Assembly (NCBI GenBank): GCA_934133175.1
Contig: CAKPAX010000002.1
Location: forward strand, 18,022-82,021
Reading direction: 5' to 3'
Origin: an uncultured Clostridia bacterium
Lineage (GTDB): Bacteria > Bacillota > Clostridia > TANB77 > CAG-508
Length of the DNA stretch: 64,000 bases
Shown here: piece after piece, positions 2,809-35,678 of the stretch
Layout: each line of letters begins with the position of its first letter
How positions within the stretch are numbered: the first letter of the stretch is position 1
Translations under genes and position numbers: made by a program
Notes under the pieces: model-generated
The model's database searches: none
Told to the model about the DNA's origin: nothing
The model's input: only the letters and a program-made list of their open reading frames with translations

Positions 2809-2892
2809 AACTTTTCCTTCATTTTTTACTTCTTTTATATTATAAATAAAAATCAATAAAATGTAAATTACATTTTATTGATTTTTGTATTA

Positions 2893-8335: not shown

Positions 8336-8347
8336 ATTAACCTCTTT

Positions 8348-9562
8348 TTATTTTATAATATATTTTTTAAACATGTCATAAGCTTTATTTAATGCTTTAA
8401 CTAATCTATCTACATCTTCTTTTGTGTTGTAAAAATAGAAACTTGCTCTACATGTAGAATCAATACCTAAAAATCTAAGTAGTGGCTGTGCACAATGATT
8501 TCCAGATCTAACACATACTCCTTCTGAATCTAATATACTTGCAACATCATGTGGGTGTACTCCATTTATATTAAATGAAATTACACTTGAATGATTTTCT
8601 TTATTAGGTGTTAAATATAGTGTTAAGAAATCTAATTTTGATAGTTCTTCTCTTGCATAAGAAAGTAAATCATTTTCTATTTTTTGTATATTATCATATC
8701 CAAAATTATTTATATAATCAATAGCTGAGCCTAATCCTATTACTCCTTCTATATTTTGTGTTCCTGCTTCAAATTTATTTGGAAGCGGAGCAAATGTAGT
8801 ATTTTGTTCATATACATACTCTATCATATCTCCACCCATTAAAAATGGAGTCATATCATTTAATATTTCTCTTTTACCATATAACACACCTATACCTAAA
8901 GGTGCTAACATTTTGTGTCCAGAAAATACTAAAAAGTCACAATCTAAATCTTGTACATCTATTTTCATATGAGGTATACTTTGAGATGCATCAACAATAA
9001 CTATAGCACCTTTTTTATGTGCATATTTTATAATTTTTTTAATATTATTTATTGTTCCTAGGACATTAGAAACATGTGTAATTCCAACTATTTTAGTTTT
9101 ATCTGTAATTTTATTTTCTATTTCTTCATCAGAAATTTCAAATTCATCATTTATATACATATAGTTTAATTTAGCATCTGTTTGCTTTGCAACCTTTTGC
9201 CAAGGAACCAAATTAGAATGATGTTCCATTATTGATATAACAATTTCATCATCTTTTTTTAGTTTGTCTAAACCATATGAGTATGCAATTAAATTTAAAC
9301 TTTCTGTTGCATTTTTAGAAAAAATTATTTCTTCTCTATGTTTTGCATTTATAAAATTTGCAATTTTTGTTCTTGTATCTTCATATATAGCACTTGCTTC
9401 TGTACTTAAAGAATACGCTCCTCTATGCACATTAGCATTATAATTTTCGTAAAAATCTTCTATTGCTTTTATTACTTGTTTTGGCTTTTGAGTTGTAGCT
9501 CCACTATCTAAATAGGCTATATTTCTATTTTTTAAAATTGGAAAATCATCTCTTATATCCAT
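8348..9562 (-). CDS. sufS: Cysteine desulfurase SufS (class V aminotransferase)
   Basis: 404 aa. PLP-lysine region SGHKM and active-site Cys loop RSGNHCAQP. Confidence 0.85.
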   Translation of the reverse strand: MDIRDDFPILKNRNIAYLDSGATTQKPKQVIKAIEDFYENYNANVHRGAYSLSTEASAIYEDTRTKIANFINAKHREEIIFSKNATESLNLIAYSYGLDKLKKDDEIVISIMEHHSNLVPWQKVAKQTDAKLNYMYINDEFEISDEEIENKITDKTKIVGITHVSNVLGTINNIKKIIKYAHKKGAIVIVDASQSIPHMKIDVQDLDCDFLVFSGHKMLAPLGIGVLYGKREILNDMTPFLMGGDMIEYVYEQNTTFAPLPNKFEAGTQNIEGVIGLGSAIDYINNFGYDNIQKIENDLLSYAREELSKLDFLTLYLTPNKENHSSVISFNINGVHPHDVASILDSEGVCVRSGNHCAQPLLRFLGIDSTCRASFYFYNTKEDVDRLVKALNKAYDMFKKYIIK

Positions 9563-9589
9563 TTCTTACACTTCCCATTTTTATATTTA

Positions 9590-10654
9590 TTAATCTAATC
9601 TTTTATCTATTTCTTGTAAAATTTTTTCTTTTAATTCTTCATTTTTTATGTTTTCTAAGATTTTATTAAATCTTGCTCTTACCATTAATTTCATAGCTTC
9701 TTTTAATTCAAAACCTCTACTCATAATGTAAAATAATTCTTTTTCTTCCATTTTTCCTGCTGATGTACTATGATTTCCTTCTACATCTTCTTCTGAACAT
9801 AAAAGCATTGGTAATGCAAGTGATTTAGCTTTATCAGACAACAACATACATGCTTCGTTTTCATTTCCTTTGGCTTTTTTACATCCTCTTTTAAAATCAA
9901 TTGTTCCTTTAAAATGTTTTCTAGCATTATCTTTTAATGCTCCTTGAACATCTATATCTATATTTGATTTTTTACCTCTTAATTCTCCTATATAATTCAA
10001 GTCAAATAATTGATTTTCTTTTCCTAAATATATTGTATTTAATATATTATTTGAACAATCTCCAATTAAATTCGAATAATAGTTTGTAATACTATTTTTT
10101 CCACCAAAATCTACTATTGTAAATTTTGCATCTGCATTTTCTTCAAAAGTATTTTGTATACTTAAAAAGTTATTTGAATTTTGGCTTAATAAATTAATTA
10201 TTATAACATTTATTTTAGAATTTTGTTTTGCTATTAAATTAATAATTCCATTATGAAATGCTTCTATATCATTAATAGATTCATATTTTAAAATAATAGT
10301 TGATTTTGTATTTTCGTTTGCCACAATTTCTATATTTTCAATAAAATTTAAGTTTTTTTCATCTATATTAAAATTAATTTGTAAATCATTTTTTATTTTA
10401 GAATTTACTACTATTTTCATTTTTTTATTTGATTTTGCTTTTACTTGACTTGTTAATATTTCTCCCAAACCATATGTTAAATTAAAATCATCAACATTTG
10501 TCTGTATATCTATTTTTGAATCTTGTCCAATTATTTCTATATTATTAAATTCTTCAACATCTTCAGGAATATTTATATTTTCTAATTTTATATTATTAAT
10601 ATTAAAATTTCTTGAAGTTCTAACTGGTGTTTCATTTAATTTTAATTCTTCCAT
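9590..10654 (-). CDS. sufD: Fe-S cluster assembly protein SufD
   Basis: 354 aa with a C-terminal SufB/SufD beta-helix region similar to the preceding SufB. Position between sufB and sufS. Confidence 0.75.
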   Translation of the reverse strand: MEELKLNETPVRTSRNFNINNIKLENINIPEDVEEFNNIEIIGQDSKIDIQTNVDDFNLTYGLGEILTSQVKAKSNKKMKIVVNSKIKNDLQINFNIDEKNLNFIENIEIVANENTKSTIILKYESINDIEAFHNGIINLIAKQNSKINVIIINLLSQNSNNFLSIQNTFEENADAKFTIVDFGGKNSITNYYSNLIGDCSNNILNTIYLGKENQLFDLNYIGELRGKKSNIDIDVQGALKDNARKHFKGTIDFKRGCKKAKGNENEACMLLSDKAKSLALPMLLCSEEDVEGNHSTSAGKMEEKELFYIMSRGFELKEAMKLMVRARFNKILENIKNEELKEKILQEIDKRLD

Positions 10655-19932: not shown

Positions 19933-20982
19933 TTATTCTTCAGTATCATCTTCGTCTTCCTGTATTTCTTCTCCTAAACTTTGTTCAAAAGCTTTTGCAA
20001 AATTATCTCTAACTTTATTTTCCACTTCTGCCAAAATTTCTGGATTTTCTTTTAAATATTTTTTAACATTTTCTCTACCTTGACCTATTCTATCTCCATT
20101 ATAGCTAAACCAAGATCCACTTTTTTCAATAATATCTAGATTAACAGCCATATCTAATATATTTCCAGCTTTTGAAATTCCTTCTCCATATACTATATCA
20201 AATTCTGCCTCTCTAAATGGTGGAGCAACTTTATTTTTTATAACTTTAACTCTTACTCTATTTCCTTTTACTTCTCCATCTTGTTTTATATTTTCTATTT
20301 TTCTTATATCAAGTCTTACAGATGCATAGAATTTAAGAGCTCTACCACCTGTTGTTGTTTCTGGATTTCCAAACATAACTCCAATTTTTTCTCTTAATTG
20401 GTTTATAAATATAATAACAGTTTTTGATTTGTTAATAGCTCCTGCTAATTTTCTTAAAGCTTGTGACATAAGTCTTGCTTGTAATCCCATATGAGAATCT
20501 CCCATATCTCCATCTATTTCTGCTTTTGGTACTAATGCAGCAACAGAGTCTACTACTATTACATCTAATGCACCACTTCTAACTAATGCTTCTGTTATTT
20601 CTAATGCTTGTTCTCCTGTATCTGGTTGAGATACTATTAAATTATCTATATCTACTCCTAATTTTTTTGCATATACTGGATCCAAAGCATGTTCTGCATC
20701 TATAAACGCTGCTTCTCCACCCATTTTTTGTGCTTCCGCTATTACATGTAAAGCAAGTGTTGTTTTACCAGATGATTCTGGTCCAAATACTTCTATTATT
20801 CTTCCTCTAGGTAATCCTCCTATTCCTAATGCTATATCTAAACTCAATGCTCCAGTAGGTATTGCTTCTACTTCCATTGTTTTAAATTCTCCTAATTTCA
20901 TTACTGAACCTTTTCCAAATTGTTTTTCTATTTGGCTCATTGCCATTTCTAGTGCTTTCATTTTTTCTGTATTTTCTCCCAT
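19933..20982 (-). CDS. recA: Recombinase RecA
   Basis: Walker [10 protein letters not shown] and the full conserved RecA core. AGGAGG RBS 6 nt before the ATG of MGENTEK; the ORF track extends 17 codons further upstream. Confidence 0.95.
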
Positions 20983-21021
20983 GTTTTTTCCTCCTATATT
21001 AAACTTTTGTTTGGTATCTGT

Positions 21022-21049
21022 ATTATATACCAAATTTTTGTTTTGTCAA
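21022..21049 (-). promoter_or_regulatory. recA sigma-A promoter (-35 TTGACA, 16 bp, -10 TATAAT); no Cheo/LexA box seen
   Basis: Reverse complement reads TTGACAaaacaaaaatttggtaTATAAT. Confidence 0.55.
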
Positions 21050-22895: not shown

Positions 22896-23159
22896 TTACT
22901 TTCTAGATTCCACTATAAGTTTTATACCTGTTCTATCTTCTCCTTCAACTTCTACCTCTGCAAATGCAGGTATACATACTAAATCTACTCCGGCTGGTGC
23001 TACAAATCCTCTTGCTATAGCTACTGCTTTTACTGCTTGATTTAGAGCTCCAGCTCCAATTGCTTGCATTTCTGCTTTTTGTGATTCTTTAACCAAACCT
23101 GCAATAGCTCCTGCTACTGAATTTGGGTTTGATTTTGATGAAATTTTTAAAATTTCCAT
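22896..23159 (-). CDS. spoVS: Stage V sporulation protein S
   Basis: 87 aa; MEILKISSKSNPNSVAGAIAG...GAGALNQAVKAVAIARGF is the SpoVS consensus. Confidence 0.9.
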   Translation of the reverse strand: MEILKISSKSNPNSVAGAIAGLVKESQKAEMQAIGAGALNQAVKAVAIARGFVAPAGVDLVCIPAFAEVEVEGEDRTGIKLIVESRK

Positions 23160-23356: not shown

Positions 23357-24127
23357 TTATACTTTTACTCTTTTAATTTTTACAACCTTATTAGTTTCAT
23401 CATCAATTTCAAAGATACATCCATTAAATATACTAGTTCCACCAGCAATTTTATATCTTTCTGGCAATGTTGTTTCAAATCTTTTTATTGATGCTGATAT
23501 ATCCATACCAATAACCGAATGCTCAGGCCCTGTCATTCCAATATCCGTTATATATCCAGTTCCATTTGGTAATATTTTTTCATCCGCCGTTTGAACATGT
23601 GTATGTGTACCAAACATTGCTGTTATTTTTCCATCTAAATAATAACCCATAGCAATTTTTTCTGCTGTTGCTTCTGCATGAAAATCTATTATTATTATAT
23701 CTGCTTTTTCTTTAATATTAGATATTATTTCTTTGGCTTTTAAAAATGGATTTTCTGATAAAACTCCCATATCTACTCTTCCTATTAAATTTATTACAGC
23801 AATCTTTTTATCTTTACAATTATAAATTGCAAATCCCTTTCCTACAACATCTTTTGGATAATTGGCTGGTCTTATTAATTGAGGATTATCTATAAATTTA
23901 AATATATCTTTCTTACCCCAAGTATGATTTCCCATGGTTATAACATCAGTACCTGCATTTATTAAATCATTAAAATTTTTTTCTGTTATTCCCATACCTT
24001 CTGCTGCATTTTCTCCATTTGTTATTACAAAATCTATATTTTCTTGCTTCTTTAAACCTTTTAATATTTCCTTTACTTTTCTTACCCCTATATCTCCAAC
24101 AATATCTCCAATAGCTAAAATTTTCAA
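23357..24127 (-). CDS. ymdB: YmdB-family metallophosphoesterase (2',3'-cyclic-nucleotide 2'-phosphodiesterase)
   Basis: KILAIGDIVGDIG...NGENAAEGMGIT...GNHTW, downstream of rny as in Bacillus. Confidence 0.8.
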   Translation of the reverse strand: MKILAIGDIVGDIGVRKVKEILKGLKKQENIDFVITNGENAAEGMGITEKNFNDLINAGTDVITMGNHTWGKKDIFKFIDNPQLIRPANYPKDVVGKGFAIYNCKDKKIAVINLIGRVDMGVLSENPFLKAKEIISNIKEKADIIIIDFHAEATAEKIAMGYYLDGKITAMFGTHTHVQTADEKILPNGTGYITDIGMTGPEHSVIGMDISASIKRFETTLPERYKIAGGTSIFNGCIFEIDDETNKVVKIKRVKV

Positions 24128-24280: not shown

Positions 24281-25828
24281 CTATTTTGCATAATCTATTA
24301 CTCTTGATTCTCTAATAACATTTACTTTTATTTGTCCTGGATAATCCATTTCATTTTCTACTTTTTTAGCTACTTCTCTGGCTAGTATAGTCATTTTATC
24401 ATCATTTATTTCGTCTGGTTTTACTATTATTCTTATTTCACGTCCAGCTTGTATTGCAAAAGATTTTTCAACTCCTTCAAAAGAATCTGCTATTTCTTCT
24501 AAGTTTTGTAATCTCTTAATATATGTTTCTAAAGTTTCTCTTCTAGCACCTGGTCTTGAAGCTGATATAGCATCTGCTGCTTGTACTAAAACAGCCTCCA
24601 ATGTTTGTGGTTCAACATCTCCATGGTGTGCTTCAACAGCATTTATTACTATTGGATTTTCTTTATACTTTTTAAGTATATCAACACCTATTTCTACGTG
24701 TGTTCCTTCCATATCATGATCTAATGCCTTTCCAATATCATGTAAAAGCCCAGCTCTTCTAGCTAATTTCGGATCTAATCCTAATTCTTCTGCCATAATT
24801 CTTGCTAAGTTTGATACTTCTATTGAATGATTTAAAACATTTTGTCCATAACTCGTCCTATACTTTAATTTACCAATTAATTTTATAACATCTGGATGTA
24901 AACCATTTACACCTGTTTCTAAAATAGCTCTTTCTCCTTCTGCTTTAATTGTTGCTTCCACTTCTTCTTTTGCTTTTTCTACCATTTCTTCTATTTTTGC
25001 AGGATGAATTCTTCCATCATCTATTAATTTTTCTAACGCAATTTTAGCAACTTCTCTTCTTAATGGATCAAAACCTGATAGAATTACAGCTTCTGGTGTA
25101 TCATCAATTATTAAATCTATTCCTGTAAGTGTTTCTAATGCTTTAATATTTCTACCTTCTCTACCAATAATTCTTCCTTTCATATCATCATTTGGAAGTG
25201 ATACTATTGATACAGTAGTTTCTTGTGAATGATCTGCTGCACATTTTTGAATTGCATATGTAATTAATTCTTTTGCATTTTTGCCAGCATCTTCTTTTGC
25301 TTTTTGATCTAAATCTCTAATAATAGCTGCTTTTTCACTTGTTATTTGTTTTTCAATTTCATCTAACAATCTTTCTTTTGCAGCTTCTTTTGTTAAGCCA
25401 GATATTCTTTGTAATTCTTCCATCTCTTTTTCATACAATGATTCTAATTCTTGACTTCTTGTATCAAGATCTTGTCTTGTTTGTTCTATTTGTCTTTCTT
25501 TTTTCTCAAAATTTTCAGAACGTCTTTCTAAATTTTCTTCTTTCTGAATTACTCTAGCTTCTTGTTTTTGTATTTCGCCTCTTCTTTCTTTAATCTCCTG
25601 ATCTAATTCTTTTCTACTACTCATGATTTCTTCTTTAGCCTTAAAAATTTCTTCTTTTTTCATATTTTCTGCTTCAATTTTAGCTAAATCGATTAATCTT
25701 TTAGCCTCTTGTTCAGCACTTTCTATTTTAGATTCAGCAATCTTTTTTCTTATTGTCATTCCTACTGGTATTCCTATTGCTAGTGAGATTAAGACAGTGG
25801 CAATTATGATTAAAATATTCATAATCAT
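24281..25828 (-). CDS. rny: Ribonuclease Y
   Basis: N-terminal TM segment, coiled coil, KH domain ([15 protein letters not shown]) and HD domain (LLHDIGKA). Confidence 0.9.
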
Positions 25829-26109
25829 ACACCTCTTTCTTATTAAATTTTCAATGTTCGAATAAATATATAAATTTAAAATTATTATTTTAATATATTT
25901 CTTCCTATTCTATTTTATATTTATTATTGTAAACTGTCAAGTATTTATTTAATATGAATTGTATTTTATTCAAATTTATTAACTTTTTCAATAATCTTAT
26001 TTGCAATAATATTTTTATTAAACTACAATACACATATTAAATTTTTAAACACTACCAAAGGAAATGTCATAAAAAACAACATTTCCCTCAGTAGTGTTTA
26101 AAAATCATT

Positions 26110-26481
26110 TCATGCGTTCATACTTTCTTTTGCAACTTTCAGTCTTGTGGCTGCTATTTTCTCTTCTTCTTTACTCAACTCACGACCAAGTTTAGGGCAA
26201 TAAAGTGGCTTGCGAATATTAGTCCATTCGCTAGGTCTCTCAAGAGATTCTTCAATTACTCCACCAACTTCAAGGCATACAGCCTTCATATCTCCATCCC
26301 TGAAATCATCATAAGGATCAGGATCGGGAAGTAATTTAAATGATATACATTGATCACAGTAGTCGTTGCCACCCATACCTTGAGTAGAATACTTTAATGC
26401 TCCGCCACTGTCAATAACAACGACATCAACACCAGCTTTTTCAAGTTCTTTAATTTCCCGCAGATCTTTTTCATTCAACAT
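26110..26481 (-). CDS. Hypothetical 123-aa protein with four Cys (CDQC...C...CP); compositionally foreign at about 40% GC
   Basis: Strong RBS AGGAGGAAAAGTGAATG. GC is 38-42% over 120 nt sampled against about 25% around it. Lies immediately downstream of the giant AAA+ gene. Confidence 0.45.
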   Translation of the reverse strand: MLNEKDLREIKELEKAGVDVVVIDSGGALKYSTQGMGGNDYCDQCISFKLLPDPDPYDDFRDGDMKAVCLEVGGVIEESLERPSEWTNIRKPLYCPKLGRELSKEEEKIAATRLKVAKESMNA

Positions 26482-26656
26482 TCACTTTTCCTCCTTAAAA
26501 TAATAATTTTACAATGTACGCTATATATCAAACTGTAAAACAGGATTAAAAAGAATTTAACATTAGTATTATATCATTTTTTATTATTTTTTTCAAGTTT
26601 TTCAGTATTTTGATTATATATGGTATGTGTCAACTAAATGTAAGCATTTTTTTATT

Positions 26657-29600
26657 CTACTTATTATTCATGATTTCAACAAATTGTTTTTCGTTAATTT
26701 CTTTATTTTTTAATAAATATTCAACTGCTTTTTCCGTTTTTCCTTTATTTTCTGTCAAAATTTTAATTGTTTTCTCATAACATTCTGAAAGAATTTTATT
26801 GGCTTCCTCATATATATATTTATCTATATTTTCTTCATAAGGAAATGTATATAATCCTAATTCTGACATACCATATTTTGTAATCATATTTCTTACCATT
26901 TTAGAAGCATTATTTAAATCAGTATTATTTCCAGACTCATGTTCACCTAAATAAACAATTTCATTACACATTCCACCTAAACAGCGACAAATCTTATTCA
27001 AATACTCTTGTCTACTTAAATTTTTTATTTTTTCATTATATCTAACATATCCCAATACGCCTCTGCCCTCAGCATTAATTGTTATTTTTTCTATTCCAGG
27101 ATTTTTTCCTAATATATAACTAATAGCTGCATGTCCAATTTCATGAATAGCTGTTCTTCTTTGAGATTCTTCATCTATTAAATCAGGATTTATCATATAT
27201 TCTCCTGTATATATATTTTTTATCATGTCTTGAATTGTTGGTATACATTCTTTTGTTATAGTTTTTATATCTCCTTTTTTAGTAGCTAATTTTAGCAATG
27301 TATTTTGTACAACTTTATCAACAAATCTTCCATTTCCTATGTTTTCTACATTACAGAAATACTTCATTAATCTTTTTAAATTTTCCTTTGCATCATCTTC
27401 TATTTGTAAGCCAATATCATGTATTTTTTTATAATATATTTCACAATATTCATCATCTGTATAATCAACAAAATTAAATGTATATCCAACTCTTGATGAA
27501 ATTCCTGGATTTATTTTTAAAAATTCACCCATTTCATTTTTATATCCAGCAAATACTACTACAAATTCACCTTTATGGTCTTCCATTGCTTTAATTAATG
27601 TTGCAATAGCTTCTGATCCAAAATCATATTGAGCATTATGTCCTTGAGCCAAACTATAAGCCTCGTCTATAAATAATACTCCTCCCATTGCTTTTTCAAT
27701 TACTTCTGCTGTTTTTATAGCTGTCTGCCCTACATATCCTGCAACCAAATCTTTTCTTTCTACTTCTATTAATTTATTTTCATGAATAATTCCAATATCA
27801 AATAAAACTTTAGCAATAATTCTTGCTACTGTTGTTTTACCTGTACCAGGATTGCCTGTAAAAATCATATGTAGATTTTGCCTAGGAATTACTAAATTTT
27901 GTTCTTCTGCTTTTTTAAAAAATTTTATATATTTTTCAAATTCAATAATTTTTTCTTTTATTTCTTTTAATCCAATCAAGTTATCAAGCATATCTTTTGC
28001 ATTATATTTAGAATAATTTGTATTATTTAGCTCTTCTATTGTTGGAATATCTTCTATTGTTATCATTTTTATATTTTTAGTTTCCCTTAAAGCATGTTTC
28101 ATAATTACTTCTTGTATCAATTTATCTACAAAACGCCCATTACCAAAATTTTTTTTACTACTATAATACTCAAAAATTTTTGATAAATCTTTATCTACTT
28201 TTGAGTTCATAGAATATCCCATATTATTCATCTTAAGCATAAACATTTGCTTAAGTTCATCCTCAGAGTAATCCTCAAAATTGAATGTATAACCTATTCT
28301 AGAAGAAATTCCCGGATTTATATCTAAAAATGTCTTCATTTCATCTTTATACCCAGCAAAAATAACAACAAAATTATTTTTATGGTCTTCCATTGCTTTA
28401 ATTAATGTTGCAATAGATTCTGATCCATAATCATTTTGAGAATTATGCCCTTGAGCCAAACTATAAGCCTCATCTATAAATAATACTCCTCCCATTGCTT
28501 TCTCAATTACTTCTGCCGTTTTTATAGCTGTCTGCCCTACATATCCTGCAACCAAATCTTTTCTTTCTACTTCTATTAATTTATTTTCATGAATAATTCC
28601 AATATCAAATAAAACTTTAGCAATAATTCTTGCTACTGTTGTTTTACCTGTACCAGGATTGCCTGTAAAAATCATATGTAGATTTTGCCTAGGAATTACT
28701 AAATTTTGTTCTTCTGCTTTTTTAAAAAATTTTATATATTTTTCAAATTCAATAATTTTTTCTTTTATTTCTTTTAATCCAATCAAGTTATCAAGCATAT
28801 CTTTTGCATTATATTTAGAATAATTTGTATTATTTAGCTCTTCTATTGTTGGAATATCTTCTATTGTTATCATTTTTATATTTTTAGTTTCCCTTAAAGC
28901 ATGTTTCATAATTACTTCTTGTATCAATTTATCTACAAAACGCCCATTACCAAAATTTTTTTTACTACTATAATACTCAAAAATTTTTGATAAATCTTTA
29001 TCTACTTTTGAGTTCATAGAATATCCCATATTATTCATCTTAAGCATAAACATTTGCTTAAGTTCATCCTCAGAGTAATCCTCAAAATTGAATGTATAAC
29101 CTATTCTAGAAGAAATTCCCGGATTTATATCTAAAAATGTCTTCATTTCATCTTTATACCCAGCAAAAATAACAACAAAATTATTTTTATGGTCTTCCAT
29201 TGCTTTAATTAATGTTGCAATAGATTCTGATCCATAATCATTTTGAGAATTATGCCCTTGAGCCAAACTATAAGCCTCATCTATAAATAATACTCCTCCC
29301 ATTGCTTTCTCAATTACTTCTGCCGTTTTTGGTGCTGTTTGTCCTATATATTCTGCAACTAGATCTTTTCTTTCTACTTCCACTAATTTATTTTCATAAA
29401 CCAATCCTAAATCATATAACATTTTTGCCATTATTCTTGCTACAGTTGTCTTTCCTGTACCAGGATTACCTGTAAAGATCATATGTAAATTAGATTCTGT
29501 AGTTTTTAATCCTAAGTTTTGGGCTTTTAATGTATATAATGCATATTTTTCAAATTTTTTTATATTATCTTTAACAGAATTTAATCCTATTATATTTTTT

Positions 29601-31372
29601 AGGCTTTCTTCTACTGTCTCTCTTTTATATATATTATCTGGAAAAATAAAACCTTTTTTACTAATACTATAATTAGATAAATATTTAGCTAATTCTTCAT
29701 TATAAAACGGAAAGAATTCTGCATTCATACTTACATATTCTATAAATTGTTCTTTTACTATTTTTCTAAGTTTTTGATTATTTCTCAATTTCATTGATAA
29801 CTCATTATTTAAGTTTTTGTAATATAACTCGAACAATTCGTCTATTGATAAGTTTGAGATTTTATATCTATTGTTTTGATATACAAACTTTATTTTTGTA
29901 TCTAATGATAATAATTCATCTACTGAATTTTTGTCAGATGCTATTATTACATAATCTTCATTAAATATTGATGTAATCAATTCTACTATTCTATTAACCC
30001 TTCTTAACTCTAGATATCTTGAAGTTCTTCCATTTTTAATTCTTCTATATTCATTAACAAATTCTTTTACATCTGTTAAAACATATAAATGTCTATCCAA
30101 AATTGAATTTTCTTCAACAGTCCATACATTAGTGCCAGGTTTTCCCTGTAATTCATAAGTATTTTCTAAAGCTAAATTATATAAACTCAAATACTCTGGT
30201 TCATCATTATCAATCTTTTTCCAAGCTTTTAATAATTTACAAATTTTATTAGCTAAATCAAACTTTCCACTTCCTCTATCTCCCTCTATAGAAATATGTA
30301 GACCGTTTTCTGTATTTACTTTATCAACTAATTCTTCAATGTTTTCAATTTTATTTCTGTATTCTAAAATTTTATTAATTTCTTGTATTCTGTCTTCTTT
30401 TTTCTTTTTCTCTATATTTTCAAATTGTTCTTCTTGTTTTTTTATACTCTGATTTTCTATTTCTTCTTGGTGCTCATTATAGTATTTTCTATCTTCTTCT
30501 ACCTTGCTCCATTGATTGCTTTTTTTCAAATAATAGAGATAACCTGCAACATCAAATATACAATATGGTCTAGTACAATTCCACCTATTACATTTATATA
30601 ATAACTCTTTCGTATTTCTATTAACATATATCCAATCACTTTCAGATATATATTTATATTTTAATACACTATTAACATCTTCATCATATCTAGTTTCATA
30701 TGCATTACAATTATATGGTAACCATATTTTAATATATTCTTTTTTTTCCTGTTCTACAAATACCATATCATTTTTTAACAATTCTAATGCTATATTAAAA
30801 GTTTTTTCAGGCACATTTTTTAATCCATCTTTAGGATTCCATTCAAAAGTAAAATAATCACTTTTAAAAACATTTCTTCTATATTCTTCTCTGTCTTTTA
30901 AAACATCTATTAGTAATCCTTTATTTTTTAAATATAATATATATCCAGCATAAAATTCAGGACATCTACTAAATTTACATTTAGCACAATTAACATTATT
31001 TTTATTTTCATATGCCTTAGGTGTAGTTGTAAATTTACTTTTTTTTGTTATACATTCACCATTTTCTATTTTGTTTTTTAATATTGTATCATCCACTTCT
31101 TTATCTCTTGTTTTGTAATCACATAAATTGTATATGTTATTTGAAATTTCAATTTTTTCTTTTTCATCTACTATAACTTTTTTTAAAGATATATCACCAT
31201 TAGCAAGAATTGCAATACACAATTTAATAAACTCAATAGAAGTAAATCTTAATCCATTAACTAAATTCCATTCAAAATCATAATCTACAACTTCTAAATT
31301 ATCTAATTTATTTATTTGGTTTATTATTTCCTTAGTTTCTTTTGAAAATTCATCACTTTTAACTTCACTCAT
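26657..31372 (-). CDS. 1571-aa soluble multi-AAA+ ATPase/FtsH-like protease: duplicated Cys-motif N-domain, one degenerate plus three intact SpoVK/CbbX-type AAA+ modules, C-terminal M41 zinc-metallopeptidase domain
   Basis: Three copies of GNPGTGKTTVARI Walker A with DEAY Walker B. An upstream module has the degenerate P-loop GDRGSGKF. The C-terminus has TAIHEIGHA (HExxH) and GNNTDLNNASKMVRNMITKYGMSELG matching the FtsH third-ligand region. No TM segments. Confidence 0.8.
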   Translation of the reverse strand: MSEVKSDEFSKETKEIINQINKLDNLEVVDYDFEWNLVNGLRFTSIEFIKLCIAILANGDISLKKVIVDEKEKIEISNNIYNLCDYKTRDKEVDDTILKNKIENGECITKKSKFTTTPKAYENKNNVNCAKCKFSRCPEFYAGYILYLKNKGLLIDVLKDREEYRRNVFKSDYFTFEWNPKDGLKNVPEKTFNIALELLKNDMVFVEQEKKEYIKIWLPYNCNAYETRYDEDVNSVLKYKYISESDWIYVNRNTKELLYKCNRWNCTRPYCIFDVAGYLYYLKKSNQWSKVEEDRKYYNEHQEEIENQSIKKQEEQFENIEKKKKEDRIQEINKILEYRNKIENIEELVDKVNTENGLHISIEGDRGSGKFDLANKICKLLKAWKKIDNDEPEYLSLYNLALENTYELQGKPGTNVWTVEENSILDRHLYVLTDVKEFVNEYRRIKNGRTSRYLELRRVNRIVELITSIFNEDYVIIASDKNSVDELLSLDTKIKFVYQNNRYKISNLSIDELFELYYKNLNNELSMKLRNNQKLRKIVKEQFIEYVSMNAEFFPFYNEELAKYLSNYSISKKGFIFPDNIYKRETVEESLKNIIGLNSVKDNIKKFEKYALYTLKAQNLGLKTTESNLHMIFTGNPGTGKTTVARIMAKMLYDLGLVYENKLVEVERKDLVAEYIGQTAPKTAEVIEKAMGGVLFIDEAYSLAQGHNSQNDYGSESIATLIKAMEDHKNNFVVIFAGYKDEMKTFLDINPGISSRIGYTFNFEDYSEDELKQMFMLKMNNMGYSMNSKVDKDLSKIFEYYSSKKNFGNGRFVDKLIQEVIMKHALRETKNIKMITIEDIPTIEELNNTNYSKYNAKDMLDNLIGLKEIKEKIIEFEKYIKFFKKAEEQNLVIPRQNLHMIFTGNPGTGKTTVARIIAKVLFDIGIIHENKLIEVERKDLVAGYVGQTAIKTAEVIEKAMGGVLFIDEAYSLAQGHNSQNDYGSESIATLIKAMEDHKNNFVVIFAGYKDEMKTFLDINPGISSRIGYTFNFEDYSEDELKQMFMLKMNNMGYSMNSKVDKDLSKIFEYYSSKKNFGNGRFVDKLIQEVIMKHALRETKNIKMITIEDIPTIEELNNTNYSKYNAKDMLDNLIGLKEIKEKIIEFEKYIKFFKKAEEQNLVIPRQNLHMIFTGNPGTGKTTVARIIAKVLFDIGIIHENKLIEVERKDLVAGYVGQTAIKTAEVIEKAMGGVLFIDEAYSLAQGHNAQYDFGSEAIATLIKAMEDHKGEFVVVFAGYKNEMGEFLKINPGISSRVGYTFNFVDYTDDEYCEIYYKKIHDIGLQIEDDAKENLKRLMKYFCNVENIGNGRFVDKVVQNTLLKLATKKGDIKTITKECIPTIQDMIKNIYTGEYMINPDLIDEESQRRTAIHEIGHAAISYILGKNPGIEKITINAEGRGVLGYVRYNEKIKNLSRQEYLNKICRCLGGMCNEIVYLGEHESGNNTDLNNASKMVRNMITKYGMSELGLYTFPYEENIDKYIYEEANKILSECYEKTIKILTENKGKTEKAVEYLLKNKEINEKQFVEIMNNK
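27583..30003. repeat. Three tandem in-frame 807-bp direct repeat units inside the giant gene. The middle unit is a mosaic: about 115 nt identical to one neighbour, about 690 nt identical to the other.
   Basis: The anchor ccattgctttaattaatgttgcaatag starts at 27583, 28390 and 29197, giving a period of 807 bp. Long stretches are 100% identical when read side by side. Confidence 0.85.
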
Positions 31373-31684
31373 TATTTTTCTCCTTTGATATTTTTATGAC
31401 ATAATAATTATATATAAAATAAAACAAAAAAGAAACCTCTTTCGAGGAAAAGAAATATTTTTCTTTTTAGTATAGGCTATTAACCTACACTGGCAGTCAG
31501 CACAGTAGGATTGACAACGCCATCTCCTTTATACCATACTGTTTGTTGTGTAAAACTCGGAGTTATTCTCACTATTTCCAGACCTGTGATAAGATATCTG
31601 CAGAACACCCATACATAAAGCTTGAATACCATTTGCATCTGCATAGAAAGATGCTATTTCTGAGTGAGATTTTGGTGTCTTTTC

Positions 31685-32017
31685 TTATTCTTTCTGTCTT
31701 GCTTCTTTATATTTCTTTTCCCAACCATCTTCAAACATTTTAAGAATGGTGTCAACTTGAGCATTTTTTGCATTGACAGAAATATAGACGCCGTTGAAAT
31801 CAAATTCAATAGCTTTCAAGCCATTAAGATTCGATTCCTCATCAAAACACCCTGCTACAATAGCAGCGATTTCCTGGATATTTCTTCCAGCCATGGAATT
31901 AATTACCATTACACCGTCATTAAGAGACTTTACTCTTAAAATCTTATTGTCACAAGTCCGAAAACAAAGAGAACCGTCGTGTGAAAAAACTTCCTGAATT
32001 CTAACCATTGTTGCCAT
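31685..32017 (-). CDS. Hypothetical 110-aa protein, compositionally foreign (about 37% GC). The frame reopens for 51 codons after a single TAA (31532-31684).
   Basis: Codon usage differs from the host (gacggt, cgg, ctg). The downstream continuation ...EKTPKSHSEIASFYADANGIQALCMGVLQISYHRSGNSENNSEFYTTNSMV reads like protein. Confidence 0.35.
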   Translation of the reverse strand: MATMVRIQEVFSHDGSLCFRTCDNKILRVKSLNDGVMVINSMAGRNIQEIAAIVAGCFDEESNLNGLKAIEFDFNGVYISVNAKNAQVDTILKMFEDGWEKKYKEARQKE

Positions 32018-32294
32018 AATAAATTCCTCCTTAATTTGTTGTTTTATTCTGTTAATATGGCTTGCTGACTTTCAAAGTCTACTATAAATATATTATATAA
32101 CAATTTTACATAAATTGCAAATATAACATACATTATGTATAAAAGAAAATAATTTCGTTCAATTTTAGTTATTATTTAATTATCTTTCAAACGCCATTCT
32201 TTCTTTTTGAATAGCAATTTTACAACAAAAAATACCATCCTTTTCAGAATGATATTTGTATCGTCTGTTCTATTAATTCGAACAGATCCGTTAT

Positions 32295-32378
32295 TGGTGC
32301 GGATGAGAGGACTCGAACCTCCACGCCGTTGGCACTGGTTCCTAAGACCAGCGCGTCTGCCAGTTCCGCCACATCCGC
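32295..32378 (-). tRNA. tRNA-Leu(UAG)
   Basis: Reverse complement folds as acceptor GCGGATG/CATCCGC, anticodon stem CTGGT/ACCAG with loop CTTAGGA (anticodon TAG), long variable arm, T-loop TTCGAGT, and encoded CCA. Confidence 0.8.
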
Positions 32379-32476
32379 ATAACAATGTGTTATCTTTGTC
32401 ATAACACATTATATATTAGCACAACCTTTATTACATTGTCAACTAATTTTATAAAAATATTATTAAGTTTTTAAAT

Positions 32477-32914
32477 TTAAAATTTATTACTTTTCACATC
32501 TTCTACGAATTTATCTCTAATTTCTGTTGGTAGAAGAGTTATTTTTTCTATATCTCTTCTGTCTATTATTTCTGGAATATATTGTCCTCTGTCTGCATAT
32601 TTAGGATCATTAGAAAATTCTGGTCCATCTCCTGTACCAAATTTTCCACCTATATATTTGCATAAATAAAAATATTCTTTTTTATTTACTTCACCATTTT
32701 CCAAACTATACAATTGTTTTACAACTTCTACATCTATTCCAAATTCTTCTTTTATTTCTCTTTTTGTTCCATCTTCTAATGTTTCATTACCTTCTCTTCC
32801 TCCTCCTGGGAAAGTATAATAATCCCCTATCGGATGATTTTTCACTCCAACTCTATGCATAAACGCAAATCCATTTTCTATTGGTAAAATACCAGCAACT
32901 CTTATTCTTTCCAT
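32477..32914 (-). CDS. NUDIX hydrolase
   Basis: Nudix box GGGREGNETLEDGTKREIKEEFGI. Confidence 0.8.
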   Translation of the reverse strand: MERIRVAGILPIENGFAFMHRVGVKNHPIGDYYTFPGGGREGNETLEDGTKREIKEEFGIDVEVVKQLYSLENGEVNKKEYFYLCKYIGGKFGTGDGPEFSNDPKYADRGQYIPEIIDRRDIEKITLLPTEIRDKFVEDVKSNKF

Positions 32915-33068
32915 TATATTTCCTCCTTTAAAACCGTTGTTATTATATTCTTGTTTTAAAAAAAATACAATAATTTTATAATAATTGTTTCATAATAAAA
33001 ATATAGTGGTATAATTTTAAAGAATTAAAATATTTATAAAATTAAATTTACGAAAGAAGGAATTAATA

Positions 33069-35678
33069 ATGTCTAATGCAAAAAAAGAAGAAGTTGATGT
33101 TGTTAAATTATATGGTAATGAAGCCACATTATCAAAAGAAATTTTTATAAAAAATTATAATGTTAATTTAGATGGTCTTACACAAAATATTGCCGAAGAA
33201 AAAATATCTAAATATGGTTTAAATGAAATTTCACAGGGCAAACCTAAAAAATGGTATAATTATTTTTTACAAAGTTTATTTAGCCCTTTTAATAGTATTT
33301 TAATAGGTATATCCTTTTTATTAATATATACAGATGTAATTTTACCGGAAAATCCGAGCTTTGCAAATATTTTGGTTATTATTCTTTTAGTCACAGTAAG
33401 TACTTTTTTAGAATTTTTTGAAGAATACAGATCAAACAAGGCTGCTGAAAAACTAAAAGAATTAGTTGCGACTACTACAACAGTTATTAGAGATGGCAAA
33501 AAGGTAAATTTACCAATGAAAGAAATAACTATTGGTGATATTGTTGTTCTTTCCGCAGGTGATATGATTCCTGCTGATTTAAGAGTTTTAGAATCTAAAG
33601 ATTTATATGTTAGCCAATCATCTTTAACTGGAGAATCTGATTCTGTAAAAAAACTTTCAAATACAGAAATAACTTTAAACGATATTGATAGTATATCAGA
33701 TTTAGATACAATCTGTTTTATGGGTACTAATGTATTAAGTGGTAGTGCAAAATGTGTTGTAATAAAAACTGCTGACAATACTTATTTTGGAAAAATTGCT
33801 CACACATTATCACTTGGAAAACCAAAAACTGATTTTCAAAAAGGCATCGAAAGTATTAGTAAATTATTAATAAGATTTATGTTAGTTATGATTCCTGTTG
33901 TTTTTTTATTAAACTTTTGGAAACATGATATTGTAACAGCATTTACATTTGCTGTAGCAATTGCAATTGGTATAACCCCTTTACTTCTTCCTGTTATTTT
34001 ATCTTCTAGTTTATCTAAAGGTGCTGTACGTATGTCTAAAAAGAAAACTATTATTAAAAGATTAGATTCTATTCAAGGTTTTGGTGGAATGAATATTTTA
34101 TGTACAGATAAAACAGGAACTTTAACAGAAGATAAAATTGTTTTAGAAAAATATTTAAACATTAATGGTGATGAAGATATTCGTATTTTAAAACATGCAT
34201 TTTTAAATTCATATTTTCAAACCGGCCTAAAAGGAAATATTGATGAAGCAGTAATTCACAGAGCTTTAAATACTGATATGAGTAAATATACAGAAATATA
34301 TAAAAAAATTGATGAAATTCCATTTGATTTTACAAGAAGGCGTCTTTCTGTTGTTGTTTCTGACGGTAATAAAGCTCAAATGATTACCAAAGGTGCCGTT
34401 GAAGAAATTCTAAGTATTTGTACTTTAGTAGATTATAAAGGTGAAGTTTCTAAACTAACAAATACAATAAAAGATAATATAAGAAAAATCAGTAAATCAC
34501 TTAACAAGGAAGGTTTACGTGTAATTGCAGTTTGTCAAAAAAATGATATTAATGATATAAAAGAATTTGGAGTAGAAAATGAAAAAAATATGGTTCTTCT
34601 TGGATTTATTGGATTTCTAGATCCACCAAAAGAATCTGCAAAAGAATCAATAGAAAAATTAAACAAAGCTGGTATTAGGGTTATTGTTTTAACTGGTGAT
34701 AATGCTGATGTAACTAGATGTGTGTGTAATAAAGTTGGTATTGCATCAAAAAGAATTGTTACAGGAAGCGATATTGACAAATTAGCAGATATTGGCGTTA
34801 TTAGACTTTTAAGAAAAACTAATATTTTTGCAAAACTTTCTCCTATTCAAAAAGCAAGAGTTGTAAGACTTTTAAAAGAATCAGGAAATGTTGTTGGATA
34901 TATGGGTGATGGAATAAATGACAGTCCTTCCCTTACAAATTCTGACATTGGTATTTCCGTTGATACAGCTGTTGATATTGCCAAAGAATCAGCTGATATT
35001 ATATTACTTGAAAAAGATTTAAATGTTTTATTAGATGGTATAACAGAAGGAAGAAGAACATTTGCAAATTTGATGAAATATATTAAAATGGCTATTAGTT
35101 TTAACTTTGGTGAAGTTGTTTCTGTAATTATTGCAAGTGTTTTATTACCATTTTTACCTGAAACTCCTATACAATTATTAGTTGAAGGATTGTTATATGA
35201 TTTTGGGCAATTAACTTTACCTTTTGATAATGTTGACAAGGAATATTTACAAAAACCAAGAAGATTAGATGTTAATAGTTTAAAAAAATTTATGTTATTT
35301 ATGGGTCCTTTAAGCTCCGCATTTGATATGATTGTCTTTGCCTCTGTATTATTCTTATTTAAAATTAAAGATGTTGCAACATTTCAAACAATTTGGTTTA
35401 GTTATAGTATAGTATCAAATCTTATGGGAATGCATATAATTAGAACTGCTAAAGCACCATTTATTCAAAGTAATGCTAATAAAGTTGTTTATTTTTCATC
35501 AATTTTACTTAGCATTATAGGAATATTAGTTCCTTATACTCCATTCGGTCATATGATTGGTTTAGTGTCTTTAGCTTTAAAAGATTTATTAATTATACTA
35601 GGAGTTCCTGTAATTTATTGTATTGTGGCATTATTTGCAAAGAAATTCTATATTAAAAAATTTGGAGAATGGATATAA
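33069..35678 (+). CDS. mgtA: Magnesium-importing P-type ATPase (MgtA/MgtB type)
   Basis: DKTGTLT phosphorylation motif, GDGINDSP hinge, TGES actuator motif, 10 TM segments, 869 aa. Confidence 0.85.
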   Translation: MSNAKKEEVDVVKLYGNEATLSKEIFIKNYNVNLDGLTQNIAEEKISKYGLNEISQGKPKKWYNYFLQSLFSPFNSILIGISFLLIYTDVILPENPSFANILVIILLVTVSTFLEFFEEYRSNKAAEKLKELVATTTTVIRDGKKVNLPMKEITIGDIVVLSAGDMIPADLRVLESKDLYVSQSSLTGESDSVKKLSNTEITLNDIDSISDLDTICFMGTNVLSGSAKCVVIKTADNTYFGKIAHTLSLGKPKTDFQKGIESISKLLIRFMLVMIPVVFLLNFWKHDIVTAFTFAVAIAIGITPLLLPVILSSSLSKGAVRMSKKKTIIKRLDSIQGFGGMNILCTDKTGTLTEDKIVLEKYLNINGDEDIRILKHAFLNSYFQTGLKGNIDEAVIHRALNTDMSKYTEIYKKIDEIPFDFTRRRLSVVVSDGNKAQMITKGAVEEILSICTLVDYKGEVSKLTNTIKDNIRKISKSLNKEGLRVIAVCQKNDINDIKEFGVENEKNMVLLGFIGFLDPPKESAKESIEKLNKAGIRVIVLTGDNADVTRCVCNKVGIASKRIVTGSDIDKLADIGVIRLLRKTNIFAKLSPIQKARVVRLLKESGNVVGYMGDGINDSPSLTNSDIGISVDTAVDIAKESADIILLEKDLNVLLDGITEGRRTFANLMKYIKMAISFNFGEVVSVIIASVLLPFLPETPIQLLVEGLLYDFGQLTLPFDNVDKEYLQKPRRLDVNSLKKFMLFMGPLSSAFDMIVFASVLFLFKIKDVATFQTIWFSYSIVSNLMGMHIIRTAKAPFIQSNANKVVYFSSILLSIIGILVPYTPFGHMIGLVSLALKDLLIILGVPVIYCIVALFAKKFYIKKFGEWI

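What the first reader, a model, noticed from the sequence alone, without database searches (positions are those of the whole stretch)
26657..31372. Giant soluble FtsH-like protease with stacked SpoVK/CbbX-type AAA+ modules and a duplicated Cys-motif N-domain
A single 1571-aa ORF combines several parts. (i) An N-terminal region of about 350 aa carries two tandem copies of a C-x2-C...C...AGY-x2-YLK motif (CAKCKFSRCPEFYAGYILYLK and CNRWNCTRPYCIFDVAGYLYYLK). (ii) A degenerate AAA-like module follows, with P-loop GDRGSGKF. (iii) Three intact AAA+ modules of the SpoVK/CbbX/EccA clade carry GNPGTGKTTVARI and DEAY. (iv) The C-terminal domain has HEIGH plus GNNTDLNNASKMVRNMITKYGMSELG, which aligns to the FtsH M41 HEAGH zinc site and the NDL third-ligand region; this suggests an active metalloprotease. 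There is no TM anchor. FtsH normally pairs one classic-clade AAA with M41 and a membrane anchor. A cytoplasmic, multi-ring CbbX-type unfoldase fused to M41 with a zinc-finger-like substrate/nucleic-acid sensing head is not an architecture I can assign to a described system. Its location next to a tRNA gene and between foreign-GC genes suggests an accessory function (defence, sporulation quality control or toxin processing).
Basis: partly seen in the sequence, partly recalled or inferred. Interest (0 to 1): 0.8.

Follow-up and report, generated by a model that had tools for sequence, protein, structure and literature searches.

The report
Soluble multi-ring FtsH-like protease family
This gene encodes a giant, membrane-free relative of the FtsH protease, built from several SpoVK/CbbX-type ATPase motors, an intact zinc-protease domain and two copies of a four-cysteine domain found in no other protein family; the motor type was thought to act only as a chaperone, so the architecture is unusual and undescribed, but its cellular role is unknown.

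Summary
ORF 26657-31372 (-) encodes a 1571-aa soluble protein. It has two copies of a family-specific four-Cys domain, a long helix and a decayed AAA+ module. These are followed by three intact SpoVK/CbbX/EccA-clade AAA+ modules and a full Peptidase_M41 domain with HEIGH and the third-ligand Asp.

The last AAA module plus M41 aligns colinearly with the whole cytosolic part of FtsH. Catalytic residues are invariant in 22 diverse relatives.

The family is rare. The N-domain is found in 50 of 1.84 billion cluster representatives and in 15 of 185,579 species genomes, all uncultured Clostridia (or Eubacteriales) from gut samples where the source is named. Sources that name it call it only "AAA family ATPase". 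A 2024 survey of this AAA+ clade states that it found no peptidase association.

Module number varies from 1 to 4 across the family. Here the third module comes from an exact 807-bp tandem duplication seen on one contig only; listed near-identical strains carry two modules (1302 aa).

No neighbouring gene is conserved and GC is uniform, so the "foreign-GC island" argument fails. Patchy distribution still marks the gene as accessory.

Best reading: a hexameric, stacked-ring, ATP-dependent zinc protease with Zn-domain substrate recruitment. The biological role (specialised proteolysis versus conflict or defence) is unresolved.

The parts
26657..31372 (-). Whole ORF, 1571 aa plus stop codon. RBS AAAGGAG lies 8 nt upstream of the ATG.
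30875..31303 (-). N-domain repeat 1 (aa 24-166): F-x-W, invariant C84/C129/C132/C137, AGYILYL. Probable CCCC zinc site.
30455..30874 (-). [not shown]
30353..30469 (-). Long predicted helix (aa 302-340) linking the N-domains to the ATPase part.
29618..30340 (-). Degenerate AAA+ module (aa 345-585). The P-loop remnant GDRGSGKF is not conserved in the family; Walker B Glu, sensor-1 GY and SRH Arg are lost.
28811..29617 (-). AAA+ module 1 ('first' type; aa 586-854): GNPGTGKT, YIG pore loop, DEAY, AGY, NPGISSR, GNGR.
28004..28810 (-). AAA+ module 2 (aa 855-1123). It is a chimera: the N-part of the last module joined to the C-part of the first module, created by the duplication.
27197..28003 (-). 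AAA+ module 3 ('last', M41-proximal type; aa 1124-1392). Closest solved structures are CbbX (E 2e-48) and EccA1.
26660..27196 (-). Peptidase_M41 domain (aa 1393-1571).
27131..27145 (-). HEIGH zinc-binding/catalytic motif (aa 1410-1414).
26918..26920 (-). Asp1485, aligned with the third zinc ligand of FtsH (the D of A-N-D-I in T. maritima FtsH).
27711..29330 (-). Perfectly periodic tract: an exact tandem duplication of an 807-nt unit (813 consecutive positions identical at offset 807).

Best explanation
The gene encodes a soluble ATP-dependent zinc metalloprotease of an undescribed family that works like FtsH without the membrane anchor.

Shown:
- The constant core is one SpoVK/CbbX/EccA-clade AAA+ module fused directly to an M41 peptidase. 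It has the same order and the same length as the cytosolic part of FtsH.
- N-terminal to the core the family adds one to three further active modules of a distinct 'first-position' type, then a decayed AAA+ module, a long helix and one to six copies of a family-specific four-Cys domain.

Inferred mechanism:
- Six chains assemble into a hexamer in which each module forms its own ring, stacked on a hexameric M41 chamber.
- The Zn-binding N-domains recruit a specific substrate or adaptor.
- The pore-loop tyrosines (Y-[IV]-G) of the active rings thread the unfolded chain into the M41 chamber, where it is cut.

Shown for this window: a very recent unequal crossover between module 1 and module 2 duplicated exactly 807 bp and added a third ring.

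Biological role (inferred, weak): specialised proteolysis of a narrow substrate set in an accessory, lineage-restricted function.
For: Domain calls:
- Pfam AAA x3, AAA_lid_6 x3 and Peptidase_M41 at 98.6 bits over the full profile.
- Each single module scores best on SpoVK, then CbbX and EccA.
- PDB: CbbX E 2e-48 and EccA1.
- The last module plus M41 (455 aa) aligns in one stretch, residues 23-448, with residues 22-452 of T. maritima FtsH 2ce7.

Catalytic competence:
- HExxH, the third-ligand Asp and the GG..E Glu are invariant in 22 sequences that are 35-73% identical to the window sequence.
- Walker A, Walker B (DE), the sensor-1 GY, the SRH Arg and the sensor-2 GNGR are present in nearly every module of about 45 family proteins. 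An aromatic pore loop is kept in first and last modules.

Position-specific conservation: last modules form one clade and first modules another, as in two-ring AAA+ unfoldases.

Module number of 1-4 is tolerated. This fits independent stacked rings better than a fixed in-chain ring.

No TM segment.

N-domain:
- Four invariant Cys per repeat.
- Confident model, pLDDT 88.8.
- Found only in this family (50 hits in 1.84 billion representatives; all long hits inspected share the architecture).

The gene is kept intact at 98.6% DNA identity in another human-gut metagenome with the same synteny.
Against: - No biochemical data exist for any member.
- Oligomeric state and ring stacking are inferred by analogy only.
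- Several lineages have lost or split off M41: P0021, P0059 and P0065 end after the last lid; P0020 is frameshifted inside HExxH; P0117 is split. The ATPase part may therefore function, or decay, without proteolysis.
- Characterised members of the SpoVK/CbbX/EccA clade are non-proteolytic remodellers (PMC11513918).
- Some middle modules lack the pore-loop aromatic residue.
- No substrate, adaptor or regulator can be named. No neighbour is conserved.
Confidence: 0.65

Rival explanations
1. It is a conflict or defence effector. The N-terminal sensor domains detect an invader or a stress signal and unleash ATP-driven proteolysis of host or phage proteins, by analogy with ATPase-plus-protease defence pairs such as IetAS. 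This rival concerns the role. It is compatible with the protease mechanism above.
For: - Very patchy distribution: 15 of 185,579 species.
- A different genomic location in almost every lineage.
- Rapid repeat-number variation in both N-domains and AAA modules.
- Frequent inactivation by frameshift.
- Some loci sit among defence or mobile-type genes: HicB, NERD, UvrD fragments, an ABC ATPase and MerR in L012; an integrase in L006; HipA_C in L003; a WYL regulator plus NUDIX, MazG and Ham1 in L029.
- SUFU/SseB immunity-like proteins lie directly upstream in L006, L009, L025 and L031.
- An N-terminal 'X' domain is shared between many family members and an adjacent X-MazG protein.
Against: - PADLOC hits are only generic AAA matches (IetA, TRIP13) to the ATPase modules.
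- No partner gene is conserved.
- In this window the gene sits among core genes with uniform GC.
- It is stably present in many assemblies of the same species.
- PHROGs has no family for the N-domain, the X domain or the two flanking small ORFs; only the M41 domain matches one (phrog_30773).
- The single IMG/VR hit lies at a contig edge beside a serine recombinase, probably host flank.
Confidence: 0.2
2. It is a remodelling chaperone like SpoVK, CbbX or EccA. The M41 domain serves only as a hexamerisation scaffold or is catalytically silent, as in the chloroplast FtsHi proteins.
For: - All characterised clade members are non-proteolytic (PMC11513918).
- Some lineages lack M41 altogether.
- FtsHi proteins appear among the PDB matches.
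Against: - HExxH, the third-ligand Asp and the structural Glu are invariant in 22 diverse members.
- They are conserved in every complete M41-bearing member inspected.
- FtsHi-type pseudoproteases typically lose these residues (background knowledge).
Confidence: 0.1
3. It is a sporulation-specific paralogue of SpoVK that degrades or remodels a spore-assembly factor in the mother cell.
For: - The SpoVK model is the best-scoring NCBIfam model for each module.
- The host is a spore-former lineage: spoVS is at 22896-23159, and ORFs near 17.3-18.5 kb resemble YtfJ/YtfI (judged from memory).
- All carriers are Clostridia or Eubacteriales MAGs.
Against: - Each module scores 256-267 bits against the SpoVK cut-off of 423, so it is not a SpoVK equivalog.
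- Fifteen species is far too few for a core sporulation function.
- No sporulation gene is a conserved neighbour.
- Promoter-like sites occur at chance frequency, so no sigma-factor assignment is possible.
Confidence: 0.08
4. The three-module form is an assembly artefact. The real gene in this strain has two AAA+ modules (1302 aa).
For: - The duplication is base-perfect over 807 nt.
- The 1571-aa form is on a single contig. The other listed members of the 90% cluster are almost all 1302 aa, on dozens of contigs.
Against: - Assemblers usually collapse exact tandem repeats rather than expand them (background knowledge).
- The junction is exactly what unequal crossover between modules 1 and 2 predicts, and it stays in frame.
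- Natural three- and four-module relatives exist: P0004, P0006, P0015, P0029.
Confidence: 0.15

Closest known systems
FtsH (AAA+ / M41 membrane protease; e.g. T. maritima 2ce7/3kds, T. thermophilus 2dhr)
   Same: - One AAA+ module is followed directly by an M41 peptidase with HExxH and an Asp third ligand.
- The last module plus M41 is colinear with, and about as long as, the cytosolic FtsH fragment.
- Pore-loop aromatic-hydrophobic-Gly motif.
   Different: - No transmembrane or periplasmic N-terminus.
- The AAA+ domain belongs to the SpoVK/CbbX/EccA clade (sensor-1 GY, sensor-2 Arg, AAA_lid_6).
- The FtsH NCBIfam model scores 117 bits against a cut-off of 600.
- One to three extra active AAA+ modules, a dead module and Zn-domain repeats are added.
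SpoVK / CbbX / EccA higher-order AAA+ clade (PMC11513918; CbbX 3syl/3zuh, EccA1 9lur)
   Same: - Each module matches these models best.
- It carries the clade signatures: sensor-1 GY, the Asn-containing NPG motif before the SRH Arg, and the sensor-2 Arg.
- Variable N-terminal recruiting domains are typical of the clade.
   Different: - All three equivalog cut-offs are missed by a single module: 256 vs 423, 205-240 vs 459, 206-209 vs 467 bits.
- Modules occur in tandem.
- A peptidase is fused, which the clade survey explicitly did not find.
Two-ring (type II) AAA+ unfoldases: ClpA/ClpC, ClpB, p97/Cdc48, NSF
   Same: - Tandem AAA+ modules in one chain.
- Position-specific conservation of first and last modules.
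- An N-terminal substrate or adaptor domain.
- Handing substrate to a protease chamber, as ClpA/ClpC do.
   Different: - The modules are recent paralogues of one clade rather than ancient D1/D2 types.
- Module number is variable (1-4).
- The protease is fused in cis rather than being a separate ClpP or 20S particle.
SWIM zinc-finger proteins (ZSWIM8 9rwz, Shu2 6dex)
   Same: - A Cys cluster sits at the start of a helix with a small residue five positions after the last Cys (reading of the sequence against a pattern recalled from memory).
- ZSWIM8 is a substrate receptor in a degradation pathway.
   Different: - No Pfam SWIM hit even at E 10.
- No significant Foldseek hit.
- The ligand pattern is CCCC with a distal first Cys rather than CxCxnCxH.
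- Homology is not established.
IetAS and other ATPase-plus-protease defence systems (PADLOC)
   Same: An AAA+ ATPase is combined with a protease. IetA models give the best PADLOC hits.
   Different: - The hits are generic AAA matches spread over three modules.
- IetS is a separate subtilase, not an M41 peptidase.
- No IetS-like partner is present.
- The NCBIfam anti-phage ATPase model (listed as IteA) scores 118 bits against a cut-off of 510.

Membership tests
Peptidase family M41 (Pfam PF01434), domain level | Profile match above the gathering score over the whole domain | tested here: met
   98.6 bits against a cut-off of 29.9; aa 1398-1567 on profile positions 2-191 of 191.
Peptidase family M41 (Pfam PF01434), domain level | HExxH zinc motif plus a downstream Asp third ligand | tested here: met
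   HEIGH aligns on HEAGH and T-D-L on N-D-I of T. maritima FtsH. These residues are invariant in 22 relatives.
FtsH (TIGR01241 equivalog) | N-terminal membrane anchor (two TM helices flanking a periplasmic domain) | tested here: not met
   The highest 19-residue hydropathy mean is 1.39, within the N-domain.
FtsH (TIGR01241 equivalog) | Whole-protein score above the curated cut-off, with an FtsH-type AAA domain | tested here: not met
   116.8 bits against a cut-off of 600. The AAA modules score far higher on CbbX and SpoVK.
SpoVK-EccA-like higher-order AAA+ clade (PMC11513918) | Conserved Tyr in sensor-1 (GY signature) | tested here: met
   F-A-G-Y in all three modules and in nearly all family modules. 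The definition is quoted.
SpoVK-EccA-like higher-order AAA+ clade (PMC11513918) | Second arginine finger (sensor-2) retained | tested here: met
   G-N-G-R in every module.
SpoVK-EccA-like higher-order AAA+ clade (PMC11513918) | Conserved Asn four residues upstream of the first Arg finger | tested here: inconclusive
   The N-P-G-I-S-S-R motif is present. The residue four positions after the Asn is Ser/Ala here and Arg in CbbX (NPGFRSR), but it varies widely in other SpoVK-like proteins. The paper's numbering could not be checked.
SpoVK proper (TIGR02881), CbbX (TIGR02880), EccA (TIGR03922) equivalogs | A single module reaches the curated cut-off | tested here: not met
   SpoVK 256-267 vs 423; CbbX 205-240 vs 459; EccA 206-209 vs 467 bits.
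SWIM zinc finger (Pfam PF04434) | Profile match and the CxCxnCxH ligand pattern | tested here: not met
   [not shown]
Known anti-phage defence systems (PADLOC-DB 2.0) | Specific match to a system protein plus the system's partner genes | tested here: not met
   Only generic AAA hits (IetA 123 bits over three stretches, TRIP13). The flanking ORFs have no hit. No partner is conserved.
Hexameric stacked-ring AAA+ protease (functional class) | Hexamer formation and ATP-dependent proteolysis | not testable with these tools
   Needs biochemistry, cryo-EM or multimer modelling.

The most novel reading that the evidence does not exclude
This is a new class of bacterial ATP-dependent protease and the first peptidase-coupled member of the SpoVK/CbbX/EccA 'specialised chaperone' clade. 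It forms a soluble tower of two to five AAA+ rings on an M41 chamber. It acts as a triggered effector in a conflict or nucleotide-stress system. Targets are chosen by SWIM-like Zn modules. In many relatives an N-terminal 'X' domain, shared with a neighbouring MazG pyrophosphatase, also takes part in targeting. A variant of this reading: the family preserves the ancestral AAA-M41 fusion from before FtsH and the SpoVK clade diverged.
Probability: 0.2. Interest if true: 0.85.

Novelty: new variant of a known kind. Interest (0 to 1): 0.6.

Why it matters
Bacterial AAA+ proteases are a short, well-studied list: Clp, HslUV, Lon, FtsH and proteasome activators. The SpoVK/CbbX/EccA clade is currently viewed as made of non-proteolytic, narrow-substrate chaperones, and a 2024 survey reports no peptidase link.

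This family combines that motor type with an intact FtsH-type protease in a soluble protein with a variable number of rings.

If it is active, three things follow:
- It adds a new protease architecture.
- It offers a natural system for asking how many stacked AAA+ rings a translocation machine tolerates, because strains differ by exact module duplications.
- It bears on how the FtsH and SpoVK lineages are related.

It occurs in human-gut Clostridia, so it may act on proteins relevant to gut-microbe physiology or phage resistance.

Tried and rejected
- Pfam on the N-terminal 353 aa, on the degenerate module and on all 31 N-domain repeats gave nothing above noise.
- PHROGs gave nothing for the N-domain, the X domain or the flanking ORFs.
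- PADLOC gave only generic AAA hits.
- Foldseek against PDB for the N-domain repeat: best E 0.43.
- The afdb50 fold library was not available.
- A conserved-neighbour search in 21 and then about 24 loci found no universal partner.
- Rfam on 25800-33100 found only tRNA-Leu and one sub-threshold hit.
- Promoter-like sites are at chance frequency (54 found against 51 expected), so no sigma-factor inference is possible.
- A word-indexed search with M41 alone returned only fragments of the family.
- The first full-length word-indexed search was swamped by low-complexity candidates and is not exhaustive.
- An exact look-up of the window protein's contig found nothing on record, so the organism name was not recovered.
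- Literature searches for SpoVK/CbbX plus M41 or metalloprotease, and for soluble or tandem FtsH, found no description. One search on 'SWIM' was useless because the term matched 'swimming'.
- The idea that shorter AAA_lid_6+M41 proteins of 577-645 aa are a separate minimal family was rejected. Those inspected begin in mid-module. P0117, the one whose locus was read, is the 3' piece of a frameshift-split gene.
Full report
**The observation**

ORF 26657..31372 on the minus strand is real and encodes 1571 aa. A good ribosome-binding site (AAAGGAG) lies upstream of the ATG.

Pfam finds three AAA domains, three AAA_lid_6 domains and one complete Peptidase_M41 domain. The M41 match is aa 1398-1567 on profile positions 2-191 of 191, at 98.6 bits against a gathering score of 29.9. 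The NCBIfam models for SpoVK, CbbX and EccA each hit three times.

The protein has no transmembrane segment: the highest 19-residue hydropathy mean is 1.39.

The one side remark that fails is 'foreign GC'. GC is 0.24-0.29 through the gene and its flanks, as in the rest of the window. The tRNA-Leu gene (32295-32378) lies 923 nt upstream, with a 110-aa ORF in between.

**Anatomy of the N-terminal part**

An alignment of 14 homologues shows two tandem copies of a unit of about 140 aa. Each copy has F-x-W, four invariant cysteines (C84/C129/C132/C137 and C222/C261/C266/C271) and A-G-Y-x-x-Y-L.

AlphaFold models are confident. The model of aa 1-586 has pLDDT 83.6. The model of a single repeat, built from 31 repeat sequences, has pLDDT 88.8 and pTM 0.87.

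An exhaustive HMMER scan of 1.84 billion cluster representatives finds the domain in only 50 proteins. Every long hit I inspected shares the N-domain-plus-AAA+ architecture. The domain is therefore specific to this family, and it is probably a CCCC zinc-binding module.

**The degenerate module**

After a long helix (aa 302-340) comes an alpha/beta domain (aa ~345-585). Its best PDB fold match is CbbX (Foldseek E 9e-4). It aligns profile-to-profile with the intact modules, P-loop on P-loop and lid on lid (hhalign E 4e-5, probability 69%).

Its Walker A is not conserved in the family; only G364 and K370 are invariant. The Walker B Glu, the sensor-1 GY and the SRH Arg are gone. It is a dead copy of the same module.

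**The active modules**

- Each module has GNPGTGKT, a Y-[IV]-G pore loop, DEAY, the sensor-1 F-A-G-Y, N-P-G-I-S-S-R and G-N-G-R.
- A single module scores highest on the SpoVK model (256-267 bits), then CbbX (205-240) and EccA (206-209). All are well below the equivalog cut-offs of 423, 459 and 467.
- The closest solved structures are CbbX (E 2e-48) and EccA1.

The modules therefore belong to that clade, but they are not SpoVK, CbbX or EccA themselves.

**The protease**

- HEIGH aligns on HEAGH of T. maritima FtsH.
- G-N-N-T-D-L-N-N-A aligns on G-A-A-N-D-I-E-R-A, which holds the Asp third ligand.
- The last module plus M41 (455 aa) aligns in a single stretch, residues 23-448, with residues 22-452 of the soluble FtsH fragment 2ce7. 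The AAA-M41 unit thus has the same order and length as in FtsH.
- In 22 relatives that are 35-73% identical to the window sequence, H, E, H, the Asp and the Glu of the GG..E motif are invariant.

This pattern is that of an active enzyme, not a pseudoprotease.

**The family**

The architecture recurs with variation. There are one to six N-domain repeats, one decayed module, one to four active modules, then M41.

A distance tree of the modules groups them by position. The M41-proximal 'last' modules form one clade, and single-module proteins join it. 'First' modules form another clade. Middle modules arise from lineage-specific duplications. The ancient core is therefore 'last module + M41', with a specialised upstream ring.

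The distribution and naming of the family are as follows:
- A scan of one genome per species finds the family in 15 of 185,579 species. All are uncultured Clostridia or Eubacteriales MAGs; those whose record names a source come from human, sheep or deer gut, for example Clostridium sp. CAG:567.
- A profile search with the last module plus M41 retrieves further public proteins with AAA_lid_6 plus M41. Where a source gives a name, it is only 'AAA family ATPase'.
- The 'short' hits I inspected start in mid-module; P0117, whose locus was read, is the 3' piece of a frameshift-split gene.
- One hit (P0192, 710 aa) is a genuine minimal form without the N-domain.
- Some lineages lack M41 (P0021, P0059, P0065) or have it split off by a frameshift (P0020 in L009).

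**The third module in this window**

Within the gene, 813 consecutive positions are identical at an offset of 807 nt (window 27711-29330). The protein reads [A-X][B-X][B-Y], which is exactly what an unequal crossover between module 1 and module 2 produces.

In the 90% identity cluster, the listed members that are not fragments are almost all 1302 aa (two modules), on dozens of contigs. The 1571-aa form is on one contig only. A human-gut metagenome contig (L008) has the same synteny and a two-module gene that is 98.6% identical once one unit is removed.

The duplication is either very recent or, less likely, an assembly artefact. Three- and four-module relatives with diverged modules exist elsewhere.

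**Genomic context**

Here the gene lies among core genes:
- recA at 19933-21033
- spoVS at 22896-23159
- a ymdB-like gene at 23357-24127
- rny at 24281-25828
- a NUDIX gene at 32477-32914
- a P-type ATPase
- dnaE

Two unknown small ORFs (123 and 110 aa) flank it directly.

Across 21 to 24 distinct loci no neighbour is universally conserved, and the location differs between lineages. The gene is a stand-alone accessory gene. That conclusion rests on its patchy distribution and variable position, not on GC.

**How it most likely works**

Shown:
- A soluble protein with intact ATPase and protease catalytic residues.
- An FtsH-colinear core.
- Position-specialised tandem modules.
- A family-specific Cys-rich head.

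Inferred by analogy with FtsH and with two-ring unfoldases:
- A hexamer forms in which each module builds a ring stacked over an M41 chamber.
- The N-domains recruit a specific substrate or adaptor.
- The pore-loop tyrosines translocate the chain into the chamber.

The tolerated variation in module number (1-4) fits independent stacked rings better than a fixed ring made within one chain.

I put 0.65 on 'ATP-dependent soluble M41 protease of this design'. The biological role is open. The conflict or defence reading (0.2) draws on several observations:
- patchiness and mobility of the gene;
- repeat plasticity;
- frequent inactivation;
- occasional neighbours of defence or immunity type;
- an N-terminal 'X' domain shared with an adjacent X-MazG protein in L029.

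It has no specific support from PADLOC and no conserved partner. A chaperone with a silent M41 domain (0.1) is contradicted by catalytic-residue conservation. A sporulation role (0.08) is contradicted by the tiny phyletic range.

**Comparison with known systems, and novelty**

It works like FtsH but fails FtsH membership on the membrane anchor, on the AAA type and on the model score (117 against 600).

It belongs to the SpoVK-EccA-like clade at the module level. [quoted passage not shown]

Searches of the open literature found no description of such a fusion.

I therefore class it as a new variant of a known kind, an AAA+ protease. It is already present in public databases but unnamed and uncharacterised.

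Noticed in passing
L020 9533-10000; L029 7745-8623; also P0015, P0020, P0027, P0030 N-termini: About half of the family members carry an extra N-terminal 'X' domain of about 150 aa, which the window protein lacks. The same domain heads a 292-aa X+MazG pyrophosphatase encoded immediately downstream of the (split) family gene in L029. A domain shared between adjacent genes hints at a homotypic or common-ligand link.
   Followed up: partly
window 32477-32914 (-); L029 2703-3149: The NUDIX hydrolase just upstream of the big gene in the window has a homologue (phmmer E 4e-22) in the same position and strand in the distant locus L029. That neighbourhood is packed with house-cleaning nucleotide hydrolases (NUDIX x2, MazG, Ham1, HAD x3, HD) and a WYL regulator.
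   Followed up: partly
L006 5126-7267; L009 4413-7157; L025 3927-5783; L031 1179-3410: Large proteins with SUFU, SseB or DUF4272 domains (immunity-protein-like, some with an N-terminal SpoVG domain) lie directly upstream, on the same strand, of the family gene in four lineages. No counterpart is present in the window.
   Followed up: partly
L009 8001-13401; L029/L030 3840-7734: The family gene is split by frameshifts in some species. The splits recur in many independent assemblies: P0020 breaks inside HExxH, with M41 as a separate 167-aa ORF; P0117 is the 3' half of a gene broken in the first AAA module. This looks like recurrent pseudogenisation or possibly programmed frameshifting.
   Followed up: partly
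P0021, P0059, P0065 (related proteins): A higher-GC sub-branch has up to six N-domain repeats, some of which have lost their cysteines. These proteins end right after the last AAA lid, without any M41 domain.
   Followed up: no
window 31373-31684: The 312-nt spacer upstream of the gene holds a weak terminator-like hairpin: CCTC-GAAA-GAGG at about 31447-31436, followed by a T-run. One sub-threshold Rfam hit overlaps it (31420-31471, E 0.021). This suggests that the big gene has its own promoter in the last ~50 nt.
   Followed up: partly
window 26110-26481 (-) and 31685-32017 (-): The two small ORFs flanking the gene (123 and 110 aa) have no significant Pfam match and no PADLOC or PHROG family (one weak Pfam hit, AcrIIA4, E 0.07). 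They are conserved only in the near-identical locus L008, not in other family loci.
   Followed up: partly
L028 (IMGVR_UViG_3300029106_000323) 1-4482 and 8236-9901: The only IMG/VR hit carries a 1493-aa family member at the very edge of a 53-kb 'viral' contig, a few kb from a serine recombinase (Resolvase plus Zn_ribbon_recom). It is probably host flank next to a prophage end.
   Followed up: partly
window 17283-18460 (-), 22896-23159 (-): spoVS has a strong Pfam hit. ORFs near 17.3-18.5 kb resemble YtfJ/YtfI (judged from memory, not tested). Together these suggest that the roughly 25% GC host is a spore-forming Clostridia lineage.
   Followed up: no
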